A stretch of DNA of 64,000 bases from an uncultured Candidatus Saccharibacteria bacterium (GCA_964436015.1 CAYTAR010000002.1:73521-137520), one strand, 5' to 3'; positions 8,201-48,954 are shown, numbered from the stretch's first letter. The notes: generated from the letters alone by a model not told the origin. Made by a program: numbers and translations.

Positions 8201-11200
8201 CTGGTGGAAGTGCGACACATACACATACTGTATCTACTGCTATAGGAGGTCCTTCAGCTAGTACCGGACAGACACCAGGAGGTACTACTGTTTCAGGTTC
8301 AGGTCACACTCACACTTTGACCCCAACAATTGGTACAGGAAGCAATCTGCCTGAATATCGGCAACTACGGGTATTGCGTTCAACTAGTGCGGGAACTCCT
8401 GCAACTCTTCCAGCGGGAGCTATTGTTTTTTTCACTGATACGGTACCAGCGGGTTGGACTCGCTACAGTGCTCAGGATGGACGATTTGTACGTGGAGAAA
8501 ACACCGTTACCACAACCGGTGGTTCAAATACTCACACACATGCAATATCAGGTACCACTGGAGCTGCGAGTGGTGATACCTATGGAACTCAGAGTGGTCA
8601 AACTCGTGCTGATGTTGCGCAAGCTAATCATACTCACACTGTATCTGGAACAACTAATGCAGGAACAAATGTACCTCCTTACATAGAAACTATTCTGGGA
8701 AAGATTAATGCCGAAGGCTCACTTCCTATTGGTATGCTGGCAATGTGGGATGAAGATGTTCCTGTAGGGTGGAACCATATGTCAGAATCTGGAGATCCAT
8801 TTTATCAACGATTTATTCTTCCTTCCGCGACATATGGAACAACTGGTGGAACTTCTACTCACTCACACGCTAATCAAGATATTGTGAGTAGCGTACCTGC
8901 TCAGGTAACCACTGCGCGAGCTGTTGGTAATGTTTCTTCGGCAGATCATACTCATATTGTTAGTTTGACAAACTATTCATCTCAAAACCACCTCCCGCCA
9001 TATATTAACGTGGTGATTGCTGAATTTTTGGGTACCGATCCCGTTTTTTCTCAAGCGCTATTTAGATGGTACACAAATACAAATGCAGAAACACCTACTG
9101 ATGCGTGGCCGAGTGGGGGAACCTTAAATATTATTGAGAATGAACCAATTACTTCTACATCTACTCCACTAAAACCGAATGATGTCGTTCGTCTCCGTAT
9201 GTCCGTTGGTGTAAGTAATGCAACATCAACTGCGGGTTCGGTTGATTTCAAGTTGCAATACGGACAAGGGTCCTCATGTGGGGCTGTTGCTACATGGAGT
9301 GATGTTGGTGAAATAAGTAGTTCAACCCCATGGAGGGGGTATAATAACGCCTCTGTTCTTGATGGCGCAACTCTTTCTTCAACAACACTCTCCCTTTCAA
9401 CTGTGTTTGGTTCGTATGAAGAAGAAAATAACTCAACAACGACACCAAATGAAGCAGGGGTCGGAGAGTACATTGAGTTTGATTGGGTCCTCCAGCACAA
9501 CAATGCAACAAGTGGTGTTGAGTATTGTTTTAGAATGGTTGAAGGTGACGGTACTCCTTTTTTGACGTACTCCACGTACCCGAAATTACAAACCAACTCT
9601 GCTCCAGAGACATCAACACTGACCCGTCTTTTTGATAATGAGAAAGTTGCTTCAACAACTCCACATTTCTGGTTTGTATCAACTGATGATGAGAATAATA
9701 CGCTTTACTACCAAATACAAATAGATGAGGCTCCAGATTTTGCGTCAACAGTGGTGGATAAAAACTCACAGGCACATGGCAGTCTTTTCACCAACCTTGT
9801 TAGTCCTACTCAAAAAGAGCCGTATACACAAGGTAACACTGTTCGGTTTATTCCAGATGTGTCATTAACCAACAACACTACCTATTGGTGGAGAGTTCGG
9901 GCATGGGACCCTACAGGTTCTACTAATTATAGTGAATGGTCAAATCCTCAGAGTTTTACCGTTGATGTAACTGTGGTTGAGTCTACATGGTTCCAGACGA
10001 CAGAAGAGCAGTTTGATACGAATACGCTTTCAGGTGTGTACACACCGGGAATTGATGCGGTTGAATTAAATGTGGGTTCAACGACGGGAGCTATGTATTC
10101 ATCATTAATTGAATTTTCAAGTGGTACCTATGGAAATATTTGGGAAGAATTTTCTTTTAATGATGTAGAAACAACTGGTTCAATTAGTTACCAAATTGAA
10201 TACCAAACGGCAACCGGCACTGCGCTTATTCCTAACAGTGTTCTTCCAGGGAATAGTACTGGTTTTGGAACATCTCCAGTGAGTCTTGCGGGAGTAGATC
10301 CAGAGTTATACGACACCCTTCGTATTGTTGCGAACTTTACAAACAGCGGAGGAAGCCCACGGTTGCTTGATTGGACGCTCACATGGGGGACTAAAATTGA
10401 CGCTCCAACACATCTTCTCCCTTTCGCAAATGAACGTTTTCCGACAACAACTCCAACATTTACGTTTGTAACTACTGATCCCCAATCTGATGATTTGCAG
10501 TATGAAATATCATGGTCTACAGACAATACTTTTACGTCATCGACGACACGTAATTCACTTAACCATAGTGGGTTTAGGAATAGTGAAAATGCAGGAGATA
10601 CAAACCCTTTCAATTCAGGAGATGTGGTTGCGTTTACAATTCAACCTGCTGATGCACTAACTGCTTCGACAACGTATTGGTGGAGAGCGCGTGCTAAAGA
10701 TCCAAATGGAGGCAATTCTTTTTCCGATTGGTCAGAACCAAAGAGTTTTACACATAATTACAATGATATTGTTTCTACATGGTTCCAAACTACCGATGAA
10801 CAGTTTAGTACAAACGTACTTTCAGGAACTAGAATTACAGGAAGTGACGCACTCACGGTTGCTACAACCTCAATAGAGGCGATGATTGCGTATGGAGAGG
10901 CGGCGGTAACAACTCCACGCTACAGAATATGGGATGGTGCGTCATGGTCAACGGAGGGAAGTGCGCTAACCGTTGGCGCGCAGATAAATTGGGTTGTTCT
11001 GAAAGAAGCACCAACACGAGAGGAGTATATTTTAGGAACACTTGGGACAGATAGCGATGTTAATGTTCAAATTTACAGTGAAGGAGTCTGGGGTAATCTT
11101 TTTGAGGTAACCCCGAGTATCAGTAATGCAAATAAAAGAGGTTTTGATATTGCGTATGAGTCGTTGTCTGGGGATGCAATGGTGGTAACGTGCGATGGAG

Positions 11201-41935: not shown

Positions 41936-42322
41936 ATGAAAAAGAAAAAGTTATTTGCTCCAAATTGGGAGGTAATTCACCGGACGACTTTATCACGCCT
42001 TGCGTATGCAGTGAGGACTCACAGGATGAGCGAGGAGCAGGCGGGAATTATCCGTGATGCACTTTCGCTCACCAGTGCAGATGGGTTTTACCTACACGTT
42101 CAGCTCACTTATGAGAATGAGTGCGCATACAAGGAAATTCTTTCTCCAATGCGTAAACGTTTGGAGGATGTAAAACAACTGCTCGTAGTAGGGGCAGACA
42201 AAGAAGTCATTGCGCGAATTGTGGTCAGTTTGGAAGGTGATTGTACTGCGGTACGTGTATTTCATAACCGTGTATTCAAGAAAGGAGGTGAGACATATGC
42301 AACCGGTGGAGATGTTTCTTAA
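41936..42322 (+). CDS. Hypothetical protein
   Basis: An ORF with no recognisable motifs. It overlaps the next gene by 26 nt. Confidence 0.35.
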   Translation: MKKKKLFAPNWEVIHRTTLSRLAYAVRTHRMSEEQAGIIRDALSLTSADGFYLHVQLTYENECAYKEILSPMRKRLEDVKQLLVVGADKEVIARIVVSLEGDCTAVRVFHNRVFKKGGETYATGGDVS

Positions 42323-42593
42323 TCCGGGCACACTTTCTCCCGATGGAATTAAGCTCGTGCAGGGGTTTATTGACCGCCATCAATTATCCACTCGGGCGAT
42401 TGTGGAGCTCTGCTTGTTGTTTGAAGATATCAACTCGCGCTACATTACCATTGATGATGTACTCTCTACGTGGAGGTGCTACGGACTGCACGATTGGGCG
42501 TATGACGACTTCGCAGACGTGAGGTGGGGAATATGTCAATGTGTGCTGGTGTATCAGCGCCTCATGAAGCTTCATCGTGAACGGGATACGTGA
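42297..42593 (+). CDS. Hypothetical protein
   Basis: ATG at 42297 preceded by a strong RBS, aggaggtg. The track ORF extends to 42210. Confidence 0.4.
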   Translation: MQPVEMFLNPGTLSPDGIKLVQGFIDRHQLSTRAIVELCLLFEDINSRYITIDDVLSTWRCYGLHDWAYDDFADVRWGICQCVLVYQRLMKLHRERDT

Positions 42594-42621
42594 CGAGTAT
42601 CTTTAATAAAGGGTAAGTCTC

Positions 42622-42658
42622 TAAACGCTCGGTGGTACACCGAGCGTTTTTATTTTTT
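42622..42658 (+). terminator. Rho-independent terminator
   Basis: Hairpin aaacgctcgg-tggtaca-ccgagcgttt followed by a T-run. Confidence 0.7.
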
Positions 42659-42728
42659 ACCAAAGCTTTATCAAGGTTTAACCTCGCTATAAAACCTCGG
42701 TATAGTGTGTGCATATTACCACGAAATA

Positions 42729-42757
42729 TTGACAATCACTATATTTAGGTGTATAAT
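42729..42757 (+). promoter_or_regulatory. Consensus sigma70 promoter TTGACA-17-TATAAT upstream of the DGR target gene
   Basis: TTGACA at 42729-42734, exact 17-nt spacer, TATAAT at 42752-42757. Confidence 0.5.
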
Positions 42758-42892
42758 TTATAATAAAGTTCTTTGATAGAAATTGCGAGTTCGCTACAGC
42801 AGAAAGTACCTTAAATATTAAGGTTTTCTCCGCTGTGGCGAAGAGTCCAGCAAACTAACCAATATCCCTGAAAGGATACTAACCAAGAAAGG

Positions 42893-43618
42893 GTGACAAC
42901 GATGAAAAATCCATCGATTGCATCAGACAGTGAAGTCAGTGATGGTCAAATCGAAACCTGCGTGACTTTGGTCACCGATGCTACGCGCAAAGGGACAGGC
43001 GCCGCACTCCGCGAACTTGTCAAGAACGGTGTTCTCAACAAACAGAACATTGAACGTGTGCGAGCGCGCGGTAACGAGGTGGTCGCCGAGATCACGAGGA
43101 TCGTGAAGGAAAAGTTTGCAGAAATCGCCGAAAATATCGCTGGTATCGTCAAGCTCATCTCCGGCGCGGAAACCCTTGAACTCGACGAAACGGATGGGAA
43201 TGCAACCATTGCGAAAGCGAAGGATACCTTTCCTGGCTGGATTGATTCCGACTTCAAGGAATACGGTTGCGATGTAAAATCGGAACCTACCAAAAAGGTA
43301 CAGGTTTCCGTCCACGAGATGATCAAGGACGGCACCTTCGCCCAGATCTTTAACGGCATGAGTGACGACTTGAACAAACTCGTTATGACTCAACCGCAGA
43401 TCATTCAGTTCGTGCAGAAACACCGCAAGTGGCTCCGCACGGAAGGGTGTGGGAACTTCTTCCTCTTCAAGGTTGGAAATGAGCTCTTCGTTGCGTACGT
43501 GCGCTTCCGCGACGACGGGCGGCTCGAGGTCCGCGTGCGCCGCTTCTCGTGCGGCCGCGTCTGGCGCGCCGGGCGCCGTCTTCGCGTCGTGGTCCCGCAA
43601 CTGGCACTTGCAAATTAG
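42893..43618 (+). CDS. DGR target (variable) protein; VR occupies the last ~40 codons
   Basis: GTG at 42893, or more likely ATG at 42902 with an aagaaaggg RBS. No signal peptide. The C-terminal segment (VAYVRFRDDGRLEVRVRRFSCGRVWRAGRRLRVVVPQL) corresponds codon for codon to the TR-encoded VANVNFNDDRQLKVNVNRFSNDNVWNAENRHRIVVPKL. Confidence 0.6.
   Translation: MTTMKNPSIASDSEVSDGQIETCVTLVTDATRKGTGAALRELVKNGVLNKQNIERVRARGNEVVAEITRIVKEKFAEIAENIAGIVKLISGAETLELDETDGNATIAKAKDTFPGWIDSDFKEYGCDVKSEPTKKVQVSVHEMIKDGTFAQIFNGMSDDLNKLVMTQPQIIQFVQKHRKWLRTEGCGNFFLFKVGNELFVAYVRFRDDGRLEVRVRRFSCGRVWRAGRRLRVVVPQLALAN
43484..43603 (+). repeat. DGR variable repeat (VR)
   Basis: Aligned base by base with 43920-44039. 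93 of 120 positions are identical. All 27 mismatches fall where the TR has A: A->G x15, A->C x9, A->T x3. The segment is locally GC-rich. Confidence 0.85.
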
Positions 43619-43919
43619 CCTTGAGCCTTTGTCTCTCAGTCCCTCTGACCCTTGTCAAAATTTATTTTGGCAAATCAGGGGGATTTTTGTATACTGAAAC
43701 GGCACGCATGAATGTACGGTGGCTATGGCTCCCGTGCCACGCTTGTGAAAAAATACATTCGAGAATTCTGCCGGACATGTTTTGCGGAAGAGTGGGTGTA
43801 TTTTTATCTAAACAAAAAATAATCAGTTGGTGTAGCGAACTGGAGGACTTCAATGTCCCGAATACTATTCAACCTGTCCTGATTGGGCTGGTGGTGTGCC
43901 GGATGGTTCGCTGCACATT

Positions 43920-44039
43920 ATCTTCGTTGCGAACGTGAACTTCAACGACGACAGGCAGCTCAAGGTCAACGTGAACCGCTTCTCGAACGACAACGTCTGG
44001 AACGCCGAGAACCGTCATCGCATCGTAGTCCCGAAACTG
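43920..44039 (+). repeat. DGR template repeat (TR)
   Basis: A-rich, with AAC codons. Of its 33 adenines, 27 are substituted in the VR. It is non-coding; the track ORFs over it are spurious. Confidence 0.85.
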
Positions 44040-44054
44040 TCATTTCTCTCATCA

Positions 44055-44423
44055 TTATTTGGTGAGAGTTTTGTTGAGTGTTGATTTGGTAGAGGGACTT
44101 TGGAGGCCTTTGCGCCATCCGCCAAGCATTCGTCCTATTTCTTCTAACTTTTCGGAAAGCTCGGTATATTTATCGGTAGGAATTAGCTTGTTTTCCCATG
44201 CTAGTTGATAAAAGAATTTAAGAGTATCTACCTTCGTTATGGTTCGGCCAAGCATAACTATCTTGGCTTCAGGTGGCAGATAGATGCAGGCAAAACTGAA
44301 TTCCAAAGTATCTAAGAATAGGTTCTCGATCTTTTGCCCAATACCGAGACGTTCGACTCTCGGGAAGTTTCTATGAATAGCTAACCAGGATTGGTATACC
44401 TCCTTTTCCTTTAGAATTACCAC
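44055..44423 (-). CDS. Avd-like accessory variability determinant (four-helix-bundle protein)
   Basis: 122 aa. The pattern (FPRVERLGIGQKIENLFLDTLEFSFA...KVDTLKFFYQLAWENKLIPTDKYTELSEKLEEIGRMLGGW) resembles the four-helix-bundle/S23-intervening-sequence family that contains DGR Avd. It is encoded on the opposite strand to the TR and RT. Confidence 0.5.
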   Translation of the reverse strand: MVILKEKEVYQSWLAIHRNFPRVERLGIGQKIENLFLDTLEFSFACIYLPPEAKIVMLGRTITKVDTLKFFYQLAWENKLIPTDKYTELSEKLEEIGRMLGGWRKGLQSPSTKSTLNKTLTK

Positions 44424-44463
44424 TGGAGAACTGCGGGGGGGGGTATGTCATAGTCATTTTTTT

Positions 44464-45456
44464 ATGAAAAATAAGGGAGTTACGTACAACCATATCATAT
44501 CTCTCAAAAATATCCACGAAGCATGGTGTGAATTTGTGTCTGGTAAAAAATATAAAAAAGATGTAGCAGAATTTCTGCTCAAACTATCAGAGAACACCTA
44601 TAAACTCCATATTGATTTGAAAAATAAAATATATGTCCACGGACCGTATGAAGCATTTGCAGTTAATGATCCGAAACCTCGCAGTATTCATAAAGCGAGT
44701 GTACGAGACCGCTTGCTTCATCATGCTCTCTATCGACAGCTCTATCCATACTTTGATCAAAAATTTATTTATGATTCCTATTCCTGTCGTGATTTCAAGG
44801 GAACTCATCGGGCACTGGACCGCTTCATGCAATTTGGCCGCAAGGTTTCAAAGAGTAACAAGTGCACTTGTTGGGTGTTGAAGTGTGATGTGCGAAAGTT
44901 CTTTGCTTCAGTGGATCATGTGGTACTCATGACGATACTTAAAAAGCATATTTTTGACTCCAATATTATAAGCCTTGTTAGTAGGGTAGTGGAGAGTTTT
45001 AAGAGTACTGGTCCAGGAAAGGGTTTACCCCTCGGCAACCTTACATCACAGCTCCTAGTTAATGTCTACATGAACGAATTTGACCAGTTTATGAAGCATG
45101 AAATAAAAACTAAATACTACATAAGGTATGCTGATGATTTTATTATTATGAGCAGGGATAGGGATTTTTTAAAGAAATTGATCCCTCAGATATCTAAGTT
45201 TTTGAATGAGAGATTAAAGCTTTCCTTGCATCCTGATAAGGTTTTTATAAAGTCGTTATCATCGGGAGTTGATTTTTTAGGTTGGGTCCATTTTCCAGAT
45301 CATAGGGTATTGAGGACGAGTACCAAAAAGAGAATGTTTAGGAATTTGATAGCAAAAGAAGCTAAAAAAGAAACTGTACAGTCGTATCTCGGGTTACTGA
45401 AGCATGGAAATACAAGGAAGTTGGAAAATTATATTAGAAATAGTTTTTTACCATAA
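44464..45456 (+). CDS. DGR reverse transcriptase
   Basis: RT motifs: VLKCDVRKFFASVDH (motif A region), GLPLGNLTSQLLVNVYM, and YIRYADDFIIM (YADD catalytic motif). At 330 aa it is typical of DGR RTs. Confidence 0.85.
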   Translation: MKNKGVTYNHIISLKNIHEAWCEFVSGKKYKKDVAEFLLKLSENTYKLHIDLKNKIYVHGPYEAFAVNDPKPRSIHKASVRDRLLHHALYRQLYPYFDQKFIYDSYSCRDFKGTHRALDRFMQFGRKVSKSNKCTCWVLKCDVRKFFASVDHVVLMTILKKHIFDSNIISLVSRVVESFKSTGPGKGLPLGNLTSQLLVNVYMNEFDQFMKHEIKTKYYIRYADDFIIMSRDRDFLKKLIPQISKFLNERLKLSLHPDKVFIKSLSSGVDFLGWVHFPDHRVLRTSTKKRMFRNLIAKEAKKETVQSYLGLLKHGNTRKLENYIRNSFLP

Positions 45457-45471
45457 AAATGTTAAAATGGA

Positions 45472-48400
45472 TTGATGAATGAAGGAGAGAAACCACCGAA
45501 GAGTAAAGTTGCAGAAACCGAAGAGAAGATACTAGATTTCTGGCAAAAGAACGATATTTTTAAGAAAACGCTTGAAAAATCCTCACCCAAGGGTGATTTT
45601 GTGTTCTATGACGGTCCTCCATTTGCAACTGGACTTCCTCACTACGGACACATACTTCCTGCGACCATGAAGGATGTCATTCCTCGCTTTAAAACAATGC
45701 AGGGGTATCGGGTGCGAAGAAGGTGGGGGTGGGACTGTCACGGGTTGCCGGTGGAAAACTTGATTGAAAAGGAGTTGGGACTCAAAGACAAGCAGGATAT
45801 TTTGCGATTCGGTATTGGGAACTTTAATGATGAAGCCAAAAAGAGCGTGCTTCGCTACGCAGACGATTGGAGGCGTGCGGTCCCAAAGTGGGGACGGTGG
45901 GTTGATATGGTTGATGACTATCGCACCATGGATCTTTCATACACGGAATCTATCTGGTGGATGTTCAAAACGCTCCATGATAAAAATTTAATTTCTGAGG
46001 GGTATAAGTCAATGCATTTGTGCCCTCATTGCGAAACTACACTTTCAAACTTTGAGGTCAATCAGGGGTATAAAGATATTACAGATATTTCCGTGTATGT
46101 CGCTTTTGAGCTTGAGAACGAGCCGAATACTTTTTTGCTGGCATGGACGACAACACCATGGACGCTCCCAGGGAATGTTGCTCTTGCGGTTAATCCAGCC
46201 GTTGCATACTCTACAGTTGAGAAAGATGGGAAGCGTTATATCCTCGCGGAAGATCTTGTTGCAAAGAGGTTTACGCTTGAGGGTGAGACTGCAGTCGTTG
46301 GTAACAAGATAAAAGGCTCTGAGCTTATTGGCAAATCATACAAACCCGTATTTCCATACTACGCAGAAGATACGACGCTAGAAGGAAGAGAGAAGGGGTG
46401 GAAGGTATATGGTGCGGATTTTGTAACTACCGAAGATGGAACCGGAATTGTTCACATTGCTCCAGCATTTGGAGATGACGACATGACGCTCGGGAAAAAG
46501 GAAGGTCTGCCATTTGTTCAGCACGTTACTACTGGTGGAATTTTCAAGCCTGAGGTACGTGATTTTGCGGGGGTGTACGTAAAACCAAAAGATGACCACC
46601 AATCGGGTGATGTTGCGATAATAAAATATCTTGCTCACAAGGGAGTGCTTTTTGCGAAAGAAAAAATTATTCACTCATACCCTCACTGTTGGCGTTGTGA
46701 TACTCCACTTTTGAACTATGCATCAAGCTCGTGGTTTATTACGGTAACTGCGATTAAGGATAAACTCGTTGAGGAAAATAAAAAGGTACAGTGGGTACCA
46801 AAAGAGATGGGTGAGGGTCGTTTTGGGAAGTGGCTTGAAGGGGCGCGCGACTGGGCTATCTCACGCTCTCGTTTTTGGGGAGCTCCGCTTCCAGTGTGGA
46901 GGGATACGGACGGGAAAGAAGTCTTTATTCCCGCTTCGGTTAAAGAACTCAAGGAGCGAATCGGGTTTAGAAATACGTACGTGGTTATGCGTCACGGTGA
47001 AGCGGAGAGTAATGCACAGAATATTTTAAGTGGGAAAAAGGATAACCCGCACCATATAACAGAGAAAGGGAAAAAGGAGGTTGAACAAGCAATTCTTGAG
47101 TTACAAGGAAGAGCTATTGATATGGTTTTTGTATCGCCTTTTGTGCGCACACAAGAAACGGCACATATGGTACAAAAAGCATTAGGCTTAAACGATAGTC
47201 AGATAGTTACTGAGGATAGAATTGCTGAGATAGATACAGGTGATTTTAATAACAAGCCGATTGAGGAGTATCGGGCGTACTTTGAGAGCACCACTGAAAA
47301 GTTTTCAAAACGTGCCCCTAATGGCGAGAGTTTGCGTGATGTACGTACGCGCGTGGGTGAATTTTTGTACGAGATTGACAAGCGATATGAAGGTAAAACT
47401 ATTCTCATTATCACGCATGAGTATCCAATCTGGCAGTTGTACTCGGTTGCGGAAGGGTGGGATGAACGTGGATCAATCAAAGCAAAAGACGGAAGAGATG
47501 ATTTCGTTAAAACGGGAAGCGTGAGCGAGATCACCTTCGCGCCACTTCCGGTGAATGAACAGTTTGTGACTGACTTGCATCGTCCATACATTGACGAAGT
47601 GGTGCTGACAACAAAGGATGGCGCTCCGATGAAGCGAGTACCTGAAGTATTTGATTGTTGGGTAGAGTCAGGTTCCATGCCGTTTGCATCTCATGGGTAC
47701 ATAGGTAGCCCGCTCCCGCATTTTGATCCACAAAACAATGTTGGTTTTCCTGCTGATTTCATTGCAGAAGGACAGGACCAGACACGTGGGTGGTTTTACT
47801 CACTCATCGTGCTTGGCGTGGCGCTCTTCGGAGAGTCGCCGTATAAGAATGTGGTGGTGAATGGAATTGTACTTGGTGAAGATGGACAAAAAATGAGTAA
47901 ACGTCTCAAAAATTATCCTGACCCGATGCACGTTGTTGAAAAATATGGAATGGATGCATTGCGTTTATATTTACTCGGTTCACCTTTGGTAAAAGCTGAA
48001 GATGTTTGCTTTTCGGAGAAGAGTGTTGATGAAATAATGAAAAAGAATATCGGGCGACTTGATAACGTGGTCTCATTTTTTGAGATGTTTAAGGAAGGGG
48101 AAGAAGTACGTGGGGAGAGTGAACACGTCTTGGACCGGTGGATGGTAAGTAAAAGAAACCAGTTAATTATTTCTGTATCTGCATCGCTTAATGCGTACCA
48201 GTTTGATCGCGCGGTACGGGCTGTAGCGGAGTTTATTGAGGATCTTTCAACCTGGTATGTCAGACGTTCGCGTGACCGTTTTAAAGGGGAGGACTTGAGT
48301 GATGTGGCATGTGCACGTAAGACGCTCAGAGAAACACTTTCTATTCTTGCGCGAGTAAGTGCTCCACTGATTCCATTTACCGCTGAGCATGTGTACAGGG

Positions 48401-48954
48401 CCGTGAGAGAAGAAAGCGACCCCGAGAGTGTACATCTCTCAGAGTGGCCAGTAGCAGGAGTGGTGGACGAAACTCTTCTTTCATACATGAATACTGCGCG
48501 AGAGTTGGTGTCATTTGGGTTTGATGCGCGCACAAAAGCAAAAATAAAAGTTCGCCAACCCCTCGCATTGCTCACCATAAAAGAGAAACTTCCAGCAGAA
48601 TTTCTTGATCAAATTGCCGATGAAGTAAATGTGAAAGAGGTTATTGTTGGAGATACCAAAGAAGATTCTGTATTGCTTGATACGACACTTACCCCCGTAC
48701 TTGTTACCGAAGGGTATCAGCGTGACGTTATTCGTCATGTGCAGGAAAAGAGAAAAGAAGCGGGGCTACAGACGAGTGATAAAATAGTACTCATGATTGA
48801 GGGGGATAGTAATACGCACGCTTTTATTTCAGCAATTGAGCACGAGCTTGGGCGCGTGGCGCAGGTTGCGCGTTTTGAATACAAGGGGCCAGGTGAAGAT
48901 AGTTCTCTCGTACTGGGTAGTTTCTCTTTCTCTTTTTCGGTGAAGAAATTGTAA
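45472..48954 (+). CDS. ileS: Isoleucyl-tRNA synthetase (type 2) with inserted histidine-phosphatase (PGAM-like) domain
   Basis: PPFATGLPHYGHIL (HIGH region), KMSKRL (KMSKS), and WAISRSRFWGAPLPVW are all IleRS-typical. An in-frame ~200-aa insert at about 46972-47568 carries RHGE...N, SPFVRTQETA and ITHE motifs. Confidence 0.85.
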   Translation: MMNEGEKPPKSKVAETEEKILDFWQKNDIFKKTLEKSSPKGDFVFYDGPPFATGLPHYGHILPATMKDVIPRFKTMQGYRVRRRWGWDCHGLPVENLIEKELGLKDKQDILRFGIGNFNDEAKKSVLRYADDWRRAVPKWGRWVDMVDDYRTMDLSYTESIWWMFKTLHDKNLISEGYKSMHLCPHCETTLSNFEVNQGYKDITDISVYVAFELENEPNTFLLAWTTTPWTLPGNVALAVNPAVAYSTVEKDGKRYILAEDLVAKRFTLEGETAVVGNKIKGSELIGKSYKPVFPYYAEDTTLEGREKGWKVYGADFVTTEDGTGIVHIAPAFGDDDMTLGKKEGLPFVQHVTTGGIFKPEVRDFAGVYVKPKDDHQSGDVAIIKYLAHKGVLFAKEKIIHSYPHCWRCDTPLLNYASSSWFITVTAIKDKLVEENKKVQWVPKEMGEGRFGKWLEGARDWAISRSRFWGAPLPVWRDTDGKEVFIPASVKELKERIGFRNTYVVMRHGEAESNAQNILSGKKDNPHHITEKGKKEVEQAILELQGRAIDMVFVSPFVRTQETAHMVQKALGLNDSQIVTEDRIAEIDTGDFNNKPIEEYRAYFESTTEKFSKRAPNGESLRDVRTRVGEFLYEIDKRYEGKTILIITHEYPIWQLYSVAEGWDERGSIKAKDGRDDFVKTGSVSEITFAPLPVNEQFVTDLHRPYIDEVVLTTKDGAPMKRVPEVFDCWVESGSMPFASHGYIGSPLPHFDPQNNVGFPADFIAEGQDQTRGWFYSLIVLGVALFGESPYKNVVVNGIVLGEDGQKMSKRLKNYPDPMHVVEKYGMDALRLYLLGSPLVKAEDVCFSEKSVDEIMKKNIGRLDNVVSFFEMFKEGEEVRGESEHVLDRWMVSKRNQLIISVSASLNAYQFDRAVRAVAEFIEDLSTWYVRRSRDRFKGEDLSDVACARKTLRETLSILARVSAPLIPFTAEHVYRAVREESDPESVHLSEWPVAGVVDETLLSYMNTARELVSFGFDARTKAKIKVRQPLALLTIKEKLPAEFLDQIADEVNVKEVIVGDTKEDSVLLDTTLTPVLVTEGYQRDVIRHVQEKRKEAGLQTSDKIVLMIEGDSNTHAFISAIEHELGRVAQVARFEYKGPGEDSSLVLGSFSFSFSVKKL

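What the first reader, a model, noticed from the sequence alone, without database searches (positions are those of the whole stretch)
42893..43618. DGR target is a small, apparently cytoplasmic protein without a recognisable CLec/FGE/Ig variable fold
The 241-aa target has no signal peptide or TM segment and is Lys/Glu-rich and helical-looking. Its VR-encoded tail in the current allele is Arg/Val-rich: VRFRDDGRLEVRVRRFSCGRVWRAGRRLRVVVPQL. The 27 A->G/C/T substitutions make the VR the only GC-rich segment in the window.

Most characterised DGR targets display their VR on a C-type-lectin or Ig-like fold on surface or tail proteins. This could be a divergent CLec-like C-terminus too short to recognise by eye, or a new target class with an intracellular ligand.
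Basis: partly seen in the sequence, partly recalled or inferred. Interest (0 to 1): 0.55.

Follow-up and report, generated by a model that had tools for sequence, protein, structure and literature searches.

The report
Unclassified-fold DGR target in a CPR bacterium
A small soluble protein of a candidate-phyla-radiation bacterium is rewritten at about 20 codons by a diversity-generating retroelement, and its confidently predicted variable domain matches no known fold, including the C-type-lectin fold usual for such proteins, though that fold is not excluded.

Summary
A complete DGR is present. The VR (43484-43603) lies at the 3' end of a 238-aa ORF whose true start is ATG 42902. The TR is at 43920-44039, avd at 44055-44423 (-) and the RT at 44464-45456. 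All 27 VR/TR mismatches fall at TR adenines, and the VR is the GC maximum of the window.

The target belongs to a very large Patescibacteria-restricted family: 2470 clusters at 50% identity. The family travels with the same target-TR-avd(-)-RT cassette in 24 of 38 genome loci. It matches nothing in Pfam, NCBIfam, PADLOC or PDB sequences, and PHROGs gives only a noise-level hit. 262 of 263 members lack an N-terminal hydrophobic segment.

AlphaFold2 predicts an N-terminal helical hairpin plus a compact alpha/beta domain (pLDDT 93, pTM 0.90). Variable residues alternate along the last strands. Foldseek against PDB and BFVD finds no match at E<=0.001 and no CLec protein in the top 50.

Earlier surveys already listed CPR targets without a membrane anchor or a recognisable domain. 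The locus is therefore a member of a catalogued but uncharacterised class. A non-CLec scaffold would be the new element.

The parts
42729..42757 (+). Consensus sigma-70-type promoter (TTGACA-17-TATAAT) in front of the target gene
   Evidence: 12 of 12 hexamer matches. A terminator-like hairpin at 42623-42649 closes the upstream unit. Similar TTGACA/TATAAT pairs precede the target in related loci.
42790..42842 (+). Conserved long hairpin in the 5' leader of the target mRNA
   Evidence: Inverted repeat I1. RNAalifold on 13 loci gives 18 pairs, 9 of them with compensatory changes. No Rfam family matches in the window.
42863..42878 (+). Second small leader hairpin (TATCC-CTGAAA-GGATA) before the RBS
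   Evidence: Read from the sequence. It recurs as GTATCC-GAAA/GCAA-GGATAC in relatives.
42902..43618 (+). DGR target gene (238 aa plus stop); the true start is ATG 42902 rather than GTG 42893
   Evidence: There are 307 homologues at E<=1e-3 and 2470 50%-identity clusters.
42902..43141 (+). N-terminal region (aa 1-80): predicted helical hairpin H14-41, H50-55, H57-80. It is exchangeable across the family.
   Evidence: AF2. N-terminal extensions of relatives fall into many unrelated sequence clusters with a median length of 73 aa. Weak CARD-like hits were rejected.
43133..43615 (+). Conserved alpha/beta domain (aa 78-238) that carries the VR. This is the module shared by the whole family.
   Evidence: Profile matches start at about position 77-80 in most representatives. 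The AF2 domain model has pLDDT 93.3 and pTM 0.90. Foldseek finds no hit in PDB or BFVD.
43484..43603 (+). Variable repeat (VR), codons 195-234
   Evidence: The hypervariable alignment columns 199, 201, 203, 207, 209, 211, 213, 217, 219, 222 and 225 coincide with TR AAC/AAG/CAG codons.
43591..43603 (+). IMH-like 3' boundary of the VR (GGTCCCGCAACTG). The diagnostic C at 43598 corresponds to A in the TR.
   Evidence: VR CCGCAA versus TR CCGAAA in nearly all of 23 cassettes. Homology ends after 43603.
43623..43635 (+). Small hairpin just 3' of the VR (GAGCC-TTT-GTCTC). Relatives have a perfect GAGCC-TTT-GGCTC.
   Evidence: The window copy has one stem mismatch. Its role as a target-recognition hairpin is inferred by analogy with the BPP-1 DGR (own knowledge, Guo et al. 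2011).
43667..43695 (+). Promoter-like site (TTGGCA-17-TATACT) upstream of the TR
   Evidence: 10 of 12 hexamer matches. That it drives the TR RNA is an inference.
43920..44039 (+). Template repeat (TR), with 33 adenines in 125 nt and nine AAC codons in the VR frame
44046..44073 (+). Conserved hairpin plus T-run immediately 3' of the TR
   Evidence: Terminator-like site. It is present in all 23 cassettes with covarying stems.
44055..44423 (-). avd accessory gene, on the opposite strand
   Evidence: PF22296 bAvd 2e-11. NF033474 2.6e-16. phrog_3206 'Avd protein of DGR' 1.4e-15.
44464..45456 (+). DGR reverse transcriptase (330 aa)
   Evidence: RVT_1 4e-25. phrog_1423 1.8e-102. YADD at aa 222. LGNLTSQ motif visible in the translation.

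Best explanation
The ORF 42902-43618 encodes the variable protein of a CPR-type diversity-generating retroelement.

Shown:
- The cassette target-VR / TR / avd(-) / RT(+) is complete.
- All VR/TR differences lie at template adenines.
- The same protein family sits in front of the same cassette across Patescibacteria.
- The family is hypervariable at exactly the adenine-encoded codons.

Inferred mechanism:
1. An RNA containing the TR is made from the promoter-like site at 43667-43695. It ends or folds at the conserved hairpin at 44046-44073.
2. RT with Avd copies it into cDNA with random misincorporation opposite adenines.
3. The cDNA replaces the VR up to the IMH-like boundary at 43591-43603.
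4. This recodes up to about 20 codons (nine of them AAC, 15 amino acids each), giving roughly 10^17 possible proteins.

The protein has two parts. The first is an exchangeable N-terminal helical hairpin of about 80 aa. The second is a conserved alpha/beta domain of about 155 aa. In the second, variable residues alternate with conserved hydrophobic ones along the last long strands (aa 199-213) and continue into the following loop and short helix (217-227). The invariant VVPQ lies on the final strand. I take this to be a diversified ligand-binding surface built largely from one face of a beta-sheet.

The domain has no detectable relative among known sequence families or solved folds. I therefore regard it as most likely a scaffold distinct from the canonical FGE-type CLec and Ig scaffolds.

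The family almost never carries a signal peptide or a membrane anchor. I therefore regard it as most likely a soluble cytoplasmic binder, or one released by a non-classical route. Its ligand is unknown. The present allele, with 11 Arg in the last 45 aa, suggests an anionic partner.
For: - DGR anatomy.
- Family and co-occurrence: 307 and 2470 relatives. 24 of 38 genome loci carry the same cassette immediately downstream, and 25 related loci have A-biased VR/TR mismatches.
- An unlinked paralogue in one MAG differs from that MAG's TR at 13 of 14 positions at TR adenines.
- Hypervariability is confined to A-encoded codons. Close relatives are 88-93% identical outside the VR but match at only 2-7 of 17 variable codons.
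- Repertoire size.
- Structure: full model pLDDT 89; domain model pLDDT 93.3, pTM 0.90.
- No fold match: Foldseek PDB best E 0.27-0.3 with TM <=0.3; the top hits are generic helix-on-sheet folds (YpmB, KSI-like, SH2, RelE, XLF), with no CTLD, FGE, Mtd or TvpA in the top 50. BFVD likewise.
- No sequence-family match: Pfam, NCBIfam, PADLOC and PDB sequences, with only a noise-level PHROGs hit at E 0.014. hhalign against Mtd gives probability 0.1.
- No hydrophobic N-terminus in 262 of 263 members.
- No conserved neighbour other than the cassette genes.
- Arg excess: AAC>CGC in 7 of 9 codons here versus 21 of 162 in relatives; 11 Arg versus a family maximum of 8.
Against: - The order of predicted elements and the placement of the variable and invariant VR residues match the CLec core definition. 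The domain may therefore be a minimal CLec that Foldseek cannot recognise.
- The structure is a prediction only.
- Cytoplasmic location rests on the absence of canonical signals in a phylum whose export signals are poorly studied. One family member (P0159) does have a hydrophobic N-terminus.
- Activity of this particular cassette is not shown. The hairpin 3' of the VR has a stem mismatch that relatives lack.
- The ligand is unknown.
Confidence: 0.6

Rival explanations
1. The VR domain is a stripped-down C-type-lectin fold without the usual inserts. It would be the ordinary DGR scaffold, too diverged for HMMs and Foldseek to recognise. Roux et al. predicted this for uncharacterised CPR targets.
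For: - The secondary-structure order b-a-a-b-b-b-b equals the CLec core order b1-a1-a2-b2-b3-b4-b5.
- The variable residues lie between the third and last strands, and the invariant IMH-encoded residues lie on the last strand, as in TaqVP, Mtd and TvpA (PMC6328139).
- PMC8144416 expects new CLec variants in CPR.
Against: - No CTLD, FGE or DGR variable protein appears among the top 50 Foldseek hits for either model. The reported hits are two-layer helix-on-sheet folds.
- No FGE-sulfatase, DUF1566 or Lectin_C match appears for the window protein at E<=1 or among the listed matches of 241 relatives.
- The strands are long and regular (7-9 residues) and joined by tight turns, forming a meander. 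This is unlike the loop-rich FGE-type CLec (inference).
Confidence: 0.3
2. The protein is exported or displayed by a route that needs no classical signal. It would serve as a variable adhesin for attachment of the episymbiotic CPR cell to its host or to particles, the role usually proposed for cellular DGR targets.
For: - Most cellular DGR targets are surface proteins (PMC8144416).
- CPR DGR targets have been proposed to act in attachment (Paul et al. 2017, own knowledge; cited).
- The consensus promoter suggests high expression.
Against: - 262 of 263 family members have no hydrophobic N-terminal segment.
- No sorting motif, anchor domain or secretion gene is conserved next to it.
- A phage copy lies among early or accessory genes, not tail genes.
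Confidence: 0.3
3. The N-terminal helical region is a CARD or death-like adaptor. The protein would then be a minimal immune sensor that oligomerises and recruits an effector after the variable domain binds a phage component.
For: - The family profile hits the caspase-1 CARD at E=0.007 over residues 31-87.
- Pfam CARD matches 8 of 98 members at E<1, best 0.0099.
- Atypical_Card matches 1 of 143 members at 2e-4.
- Death-like adaptors occur in DGR-diversified conflict systems (PMC10907252).
Against: - All hits are far below the curated thresholds and sit among equally frequent noise hits (DUF349, TMP_3, POTRA_2).
- Only caspase-1, and no other CARD, is hit in the PDB.
- AF2 predicts two long helices plus one short one, not a six-helix bundle.
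- No CARD structure appears among the Foldseek hits.
- No effector gene is conserved nearby. There is no PADLOC hit.
Confidence: 0.07
4. This cassette is no longer diversifying. The Arg-rich VR would be a frozen allele rather than a snapshot of ongoing variation.
For: - The hairpin 3' of the VR has a C-T mismatch where relatives have a perfect GAGCC/GGCTC stem.
- Decayed cassettes exist in relatives. In L019 the TR has been overwritten by the VR and RT and avd are fragmented.
Against: - RT, avd, TR (nine AAC codons intact), the IMH-like boundary and the TR-flanking hairpin are all intact.
- 26 of 33 TR adenines differ in the VR, which implies at least one homing event from this TR.
Confidence: 0.15

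Closest known systems
CPR-type DGRs (RT 'clade 2' of Roux et al. 2021; architecture B3 of Wu et al. 2018) with uncharacterised 'Cell_other' targets or 'unknown VR' classes UVR1-6
   Same: - Same phylum.
- Same cassette order, with avd inverted between the TR and the RT.
- RT of about 330 aa and a VR at about 0.9 of the target length.
- The target lacks a TM segment, a signal peptide or a recognisable domain.
   Different: I could not map this family to a specific published cluster, because the supplementary alignments are not held. Those surveys left the fold open or presumed a new CLec variant. Here a confident model gives no CLec match.
CLec-fold DGR variable proteins (Mtd, TvpA, TaqVP, AvpA)
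   Same: - C-terminal VR.
- Variable residues are solvent-facing and alternate with core residues.
- The last VR residues are invariant, IMH-encoded and lie on the final strand.
- The order of core elements is the same.
   Different: - No sequence-profile or Foldseek similarity.
- No inserts.
- Long regular strands.
- Only about 155 aa including an extra N-terminal subdomain.
Ig-fold-associated DGR targets of gut phages
   Same: Variation is placed on the body of beta-strands rather than only in loops (statement in PMC6328139).
   Different: The domain here is mixed alpha/beta, not an all-beta sandwich. It is cellular, not a tail fibre. The Ig assignment itself was questioned by Roux et al..
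Cytoplasmic DGR-diversified 'antigen sensors' of multicellular bacteria (Dore et al. 2024)
   Same: Predicted cytoplasmic DGR targets whose C-terminal variable domain would sense an intracellular ligand.
   Different: - Those are large multidomain STAND, MoxR or kinase proteins with CLec domains, in conflict-system neighbourhoods, with clade 5 RTs.
- This one is a 238-aa protein with no NTPase, no effector and no conserved neighbour.

Membership tests
Diversity-generating retroelement (system) | Reverse transcriptase of the DGR type next to the repeats | tested here: met
   RVT_1 4e-25. phrog_1423 1.8e-102. YADD and LGNLTSQ. 55-83% identity to the RTs of 24 related cassettes.
Diversity-generating retroelement (system) | TR/VR pair whose mismatches are restricted to template adenines | tested here: met
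   27 of 27 mismatches at TR adenines in 43484-43600.
Diversity-generating retroelement (system) | Avd accessory protein | tested here: met
   bAvd 2e-11, above the gathering score. phrog 'Avd protein of DGR'.
Diversity-generating retroelement (system) | VR at the 3' end of a target ORF with an IMH boundary and a nearby hairpin | tested here: met
   A fixed VR/TR difference CCGCAA/CCGAAA is conserved in 23 cassettes. A small hairpin lies 3' of the VR, imperfect in the window.
Diversity-generating retroelement (system) | Ongoing mutagenic homing in this population | not testable with these tools
   No reads are available. Indirect support only: relatives 88-93% identical outside the VR share 2-7 of 17 variable codons.
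CLec-fold DGR variable proteins | Profile match to FGE-sulfatase, DUF1566, Lectin_C or a known variable protein | tested here: not met
   No such Pfam or NCBIfam hit for the window protein at E<=1, or among the listed matches of 241 relatives. No PDB sequence hit. hhalign against Mtd gives probability 0.1.
CLec-fold DGR variable proteins | Structural similarity to solved CLec domains | tested here: inconclusive
CLec-fold DGR variable proteins | Core order b1-a1-a2-b2-b3-b4(-b4')-b5, with the binding site between b3 and b5 and the invariant VR end on b5 | tested here: met
   The DSSP string of the model gives E133-140, H146-151, H164-173, E184-191, E194-202, E208-214, E228-232. Variable codons span 199-227 and the invariant VVPQ lies at 230-233. 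This tests order only.
CLec-fold DGR variable proteins | N- and C-terminal strands paired antiparallel; two roughly perpendicular helices | not testable with these tools
Only secondary structure is returned.
Ig-fold DGR targets | All-beta sandwich domain carrying the VR | tested here: not met
   The domain contains four helices. There are no Ig hits by Pfam or Foldseek.
CARD / death fold (N-terminal region) | Significant profile match and a six-helix bundle | tested here: not met
   Best CARD E-value 0.0099, below the curated cut-offs. PDB caspase-1 CARD at 0.007 only. AF2 predicts two long helices and one short one.
Sec/Tat/lipoprotein-exported or membrane-anchored proteins | N-terminal hydrophobic h-region or TM helix | tested here: not met
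   The maximum Kyte-Doolittle 19-mer score is 0.99. Only 1 of 263 relatives has an N-terminal hydrophobic stretch. Dedicated predictors (SignalP, DeepTMHMM) were not available.

The most novel reading that the evidence does not exclude
The most abundant target family of Patescibacterial DGRs uses a third scaffold that is neither CLec nor Ig. It is a compact alpha/beta domain that displays about 17-20 randomisable residues mainly on one face of a beta-sheet. It works as a free cytoplasmic binder fused only to a short exchangeable helical adaptor. It would then be a minimal, self-contained, hypervariable recognition protein for intracellular ligands such as phage or host components. A phage-encoded copy would point to a role in phage-host conflict.
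Probability: 0.35. Interest if true: 0.75.

Novelty: new variant of a known kind. Interest (0 to 1): 0.52.

Why it matters
DGR biology rests on the generalisation that massive variation is carried by the CLec fold. Large surveys explicitly assumed that the unannotated CPR targets are new CLec variants, and they left open whether these targets are really not membrane-bound.

This family is very large: at least 2470 clusters at 50% identity. It is tightly tied to one cassette type, it is small enough to express, and it is predicted with high confidence. It therefore makes both open questions directly testable, with a structure and a localisation or pull-down experiment.

If the scaffold is new, two things follow:
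- It adds a compact, probably disulfide-independent display scaffold with a natural repertoire of about 10^17 variants.
- It suggests that ultra-small symbiotic bacteria invest in diversified intracellular recognition.

If it turns out to be a minimal CLec, it defines the smallest known version of that scaffold.

Tried and rejected
- **CARD or death-like N-terminus.** I followed this through PDB profile search and Pfam scans of 241 members. I rejected it as noise-level and inconsistent with the model.
- **Conserved functional partners.** All-against-all ORF clustering of 40 loci found only target, avd and RT (plus IleRS in close relatives).
- **Defence or phage annotation.** PADLOC gave nothing for the target and PHROGs gave only a noise-level hit (phrog_15215, E 0.014).
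- **Direct profile comparison with Mtd from BPP-1.** No similarity. This is uninformative either way.
- **Exact-sequence look-up of the window protein.** Not on record with either start.
- **Additional targets or TR copies in the window.** None.
- **Mapping the family to published classes.** The supplementary alignments of Wu et al. 2018 are not held. Paul et al. 2017 is not held. The tables of Roux et al. list CPR 'Cell_other' clusters but no sequences.
- **Viral origin.** Only 2 of 2.9 million IMG/VR contigs carry a relative, and it does not lie among tail genes. I therefore rejected a receptor-binding tail protein.

Full report
**1. Observation**

The region holds a complete diversity-generating retroelement.
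- The only long direct repeat in 42500-45600 is 43485-43609 versus 43921-44045 (125 nt, 78% identity).
- Base by base, the mismatches inside 43485-43603 are 15 A>G, 8 A>C and 3 A>T, read as TR>VR. Homology ends after 43603.
- In the codon-aligned block 43484-43600 there are 27 mismatches, all at TR adenines.
- The VR lies at the 3' end of an ORF running 42893-43618.
- Downstream lie a bAvd gene on the minus strand (44055-44423; PF22296 2e-11, NF033474 2.6e-16, phrog 'Avd protein of DGR') and a 330-aa reverse transcriptase (44464-45456; RVT_1 4e-25, phrog_1423 1.8e-102, YADD and LGNLTSQ motifs).
- The VR is the GC maximum of the whole window: 75% over 120 nt against a mean of 43%, with the next peak at 59%.
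- The quoted peptide tail is exact.

Two corrections apply.
- The start is almost certainly the ATG at 42902. It has AAGAAAGGG 8 nt upstream, and homologues begin MKNPSI. The protein is therefore 238 aa.
- Only the first third of the protein is predicted to be helical.

**2. The family**

The target has no Pfam, NCBIfam or PADLOC match and only a noise-level PHROGs hit (E 0.014). Nothing in the PDB matches by sequence. It is nevertheless far from an orphan.
- 307 proteins match at E<=1e-3 in the word-indexed search. All are unannotated, and the named ones come from Patescibacteria (Taylorbacteria, Paceibacterota, Parcubacteria).
- A profile search of 1.84 billion cluster representatives finds 2470 clusters at E<=1e-3 and 866 at E<=1e-30.
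- Most representatives match from about profile position 77-80 to 234. The conserved unit is therefore a domain of about 155 aa.
- Of 263 sampled members, 256 have one copy of the domain, 5 have two and 2 have three.
- The N-terminal extensions (median 73 aa) fall into many unrelated sequence clusters.
- Column entropy across 114 relatives is low everywhere except at positions 199, 201, 203, 207, 209, 211, 213, 217, 219, 222 and 225, and partly at 204, 205, 218, 224 and 227. These are the codons that contain adenine in the TR.
- Close relatives are 88-93% identical outside the VR, yet they share only 2-7 of the 17 variable codons.

**3. Link to the cassette**

In one-genome-per-species contigs, 38 loci encode a relative.
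- 24 loci have TR, inverted avd and RT immediately downstream, in the same order as the window.
- 25 related loci show VR/TR mismatches that are overwhelmingly at adenines.
- Nothing else is conserved around the gene. The window copy sits between ArgRS and IleRS.
- Some targets lack an adjacent cassette. In MAG CAZAEF01, such an unlinked copy (L006) differs from the TR on another contig of the same MAG (L009) at 14 positions, 13 of them TR adenines. One cassette can therefore serve two paralogous targets.

The cis elements are conserved.
- A fixed VR/TR difference (CCGCAA versus CCGAAA) marks the IMH-like boundary.
- A small hairpin lies 3' of the VR. It is a perfect GAGCC-TTT-GGCTC in relatives, with one mismatch in the window.
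- A hairpin plus T-run lies directly after every TR, with covarying stems.

The theoretical repertoire of this TR is about 10^18 proteins. It is about 10^17 if the boundary codon is excluded.

**4. Structure**

- With 98 family sequences, AlphaFold2 gives a full-length model with pLDDT 89 and pTM 0.68.
- The isolated domain (aa 78-238) gives pLDDT 93.3 and pTM 0.90.
- Predicted elements are helices 14-41, 50-55 and 57-80, then short strands 83-85 and 92-94, helix 117-120, strand 133-140, helices 146-151 and 164-173, strands 184-191, 194-202 and 208-214, a loop with a short helix, and strand 228-232.
- Variable positions alternate with conserved hydrophobic ones (V200, F202, L208, V210, V212) along two hairpin-connected strands and continue through the following loop. 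This points to one exposed surface, which is my inference from the pattern.
- Foldseek against 350,542 PDB chains finds no match at E<=0.001 for either model. The best E-values are 0.27-0.3 with TM <=0.3.
- The top hits are generic helix-on-sheet folds (YpmB/PepSY, a KSI-fold protein, SH2, XLF head, RelE). No C-type lectin, FGE or DGR variable protein is in the top 50.
- BFVD gives nothing either.

**5. Is it a CLec?**

I cannot settle this.

Against a CLec:
- No profile hit to FGE-sulfatase, DUF1566 or Lectin_C for the window protein at E<=1 or among the listed matches of 241 relatives.
- No similarity to Mtd by hhalign.
- No Foldseek hit.

For a CLec:
- The CLec core is defined as terminal antiparallel strands b1/b5, two perpendicular helices and a b2-b3-b4(-b4') sheet. 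The site lies between b3 and b5, and the invariant IMH-encoded residues lie on b5 (PMC6328139).
- The order of elements in the model, and the placement of variable and invariant VR residues, fit this order.

**6. Location and function**

- The most hydrophobic 19-mer of the protein scores 0.99 on the Kyte-Doolittle scale and lies in the beta-strands.
- Only one of 263 family members has a hydrophobic N-terminus.
- No anchor, sorting motif or secretion gene is associated.

This supports a soluble, probably cytoplasmic protein. It is negative evidence in a poorly known phylum.

A weak resemblance of residues 31-87 to the caspase-1 CARD would have suggested an immune-adaptor reading. The evidence was E 0.007 in the PDB, Pfam CARD in 8 of 98 members at E<1, and Atypical_Card in 1 of 143. 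I reject it for three reasons.
- The hits are no better than other noise families.
- No other CARD is hit.
- The model shows two long helices rather than a six-helix bundle.

A true phage contig (terminase, portal and methyltransferases by PHROGs) encodes a 222-aa homologue.
- It has a VR-like end, the VR-type boundary and the downstream motif.
- It lies between methyltransferase genes and the terminase, not among tail genes.
- No RT lies in the 12.9 kb held.

This is compatible with a role in phage-host conflict, but it proves nothing.

**7. The present allele**

- Seven of nine TR AAC codons read CGC (Arg) in the VR. In 25 related loci CGC accounts for 21 of 162 such codons.
- The last 45 residues contain 11 Arg, against a family median of 5 and a maximum of 8, and have a pI near 11.8.
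- By my binomial estimate the chance probability is about 2e-5.

The allele therefore looks selected, and it would present a strongly cationic surface. That suggests an anionic ligand. This is a hint, not a finding.

**8. Comparison with the literature**

- Wu et al. 2018 found that 90% of CPR DGRs have the architecture seen here. They left six 'unknown VR' classes unassigned to any fold (PMC5758913).
- Roux et al. 2021 placed CPR clade-2 targets in uncharacterised 'Cell_other' clusters and noted that they lack TM segments or conserved domains. They stated that whether these are genuine non-membrane targets 'remains to be established', and they guessed that the unannotated VR domains are new CLec variants (PMC8144416).
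- Cytoplasmic DGR targets are known in multicellular bacteria, but those are large CLec-bearing NTPase sensors (PMC10907252).
- Searches for structural work on this family found none.

**9. Verdict**

The locus is a member of a catalogued but uncharacterised class. What is added here:
- the size and modularity of the family;
- a confident model;
- the absence of any detectable fold relative;
- the family-wide absence of export signals.

I rate it a new variant of a known kind, of moderate interest. It hinges on one decisive and feasible test: structural comparison, or a solved structure.

Noticed in passing
window 42790-42842 and 42863-42878 (A6; L006-L022): The target mRNA has a conserved structured 5' leader. 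It starts with a consensus promoter and a GTTCTTTGAT motif. A long hairpin follows, with 18 pairs on 13 loci, 9 of them with compensatory changes. A small GNRA-like-looped hairpin then precedes the RBS. No Rfam family matches. The leader is also present before 'orphan' targets that lack an adjacent RT. It may be a new cis-regulatory RNA controlling expression of the variable protein.
   Followed up: partly
window 44046-44073 (A5; 23 loci): A hairpin plus GTTTT run lies directly 3' of the TR in every related cassette. The stems covary (CTCTCA/TGAGAG, CTCCCG/CGGGAG, CTCCCA/TGGGAG). It overlaps the 3' end of the antisense avd gene. It could be the terminator of the TR RNA, or the structure that positions cDNA priming.
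   Followed up: partly
window 43484-43603: The VR allele is extremely Arg-rich. AAC>CGC occurs in 7 of 9 codons, against 21 of 162 in relatives. There are 11 Arg in the last 45 aa, against a family maximum of 8 among 261 proteins. The cause is unexplained. It suggests selection for an anionic ligand.
   Followed up: partly
window 43623-43635: The small hairpin 3' of the VR is perfect in relatives (GAGCC-TTT-GGCTC). In the window it has a stem mismatch (GAGCC-TTT-GTCTC). This could reduce homing efficiency.
   Followed up: no
L045:4292-4960 (IMGVR_UViG_3300050821_006364) and L046: A phage contig with terminase, portal and DNA methyltransferases encodes a 222-aa homologue of the target. The homologue has a Cys/His-rich N-terminus, a VR-like C-terminus, the VR-type IMH and the downstream motif. 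No TR, avd or RT lies in the stretch held.
   Followed up: partly
L006 and L009 (same MAG, CAZAEF01): There are two paralogous targets in one genome, and only one is next to the cassette. The unlinked VR differs from the cassette's TR at 13 of 14 positions at adenines. This indicates diversification in trans.
   Followed up: yes
L019:8559-9126 and 9167-10342: This is a decayed cassette. The TR and VR are 99% identical, and the 'TR' carries VR-like non-Asn codons. The avd and RT matches are fragmented. L001 has a target and a TR copy but no avd or RT nearby.
   Followed up: partly
window 45472-48954: The isoleucyl-tRNA synthetase (1160 aa) carries a histidine-phosphatase (PGAM-like, PF00300, E 2e-32) domain at aa 504-665. 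The domain is inserted within the class I catalytic domain. The syntenic relative in L007 has a similar length (1166 aa).
   Followed up: partly
window 44424-44463: Only 40 bp separate the divergently oriented avd and RT start codons. It is unclear how the RT is transcribed: from a promoter inside avd, or by read-through from the TR promoter across antisense avd.
   Followed up: no
window 41936-42593: Two overlapping hypothetical ORFs (128 and 127 aa) lie between ArgRS and the terminator at 42623-42649. They have no family match and no counterpart in related loci.
   Followed up: partly
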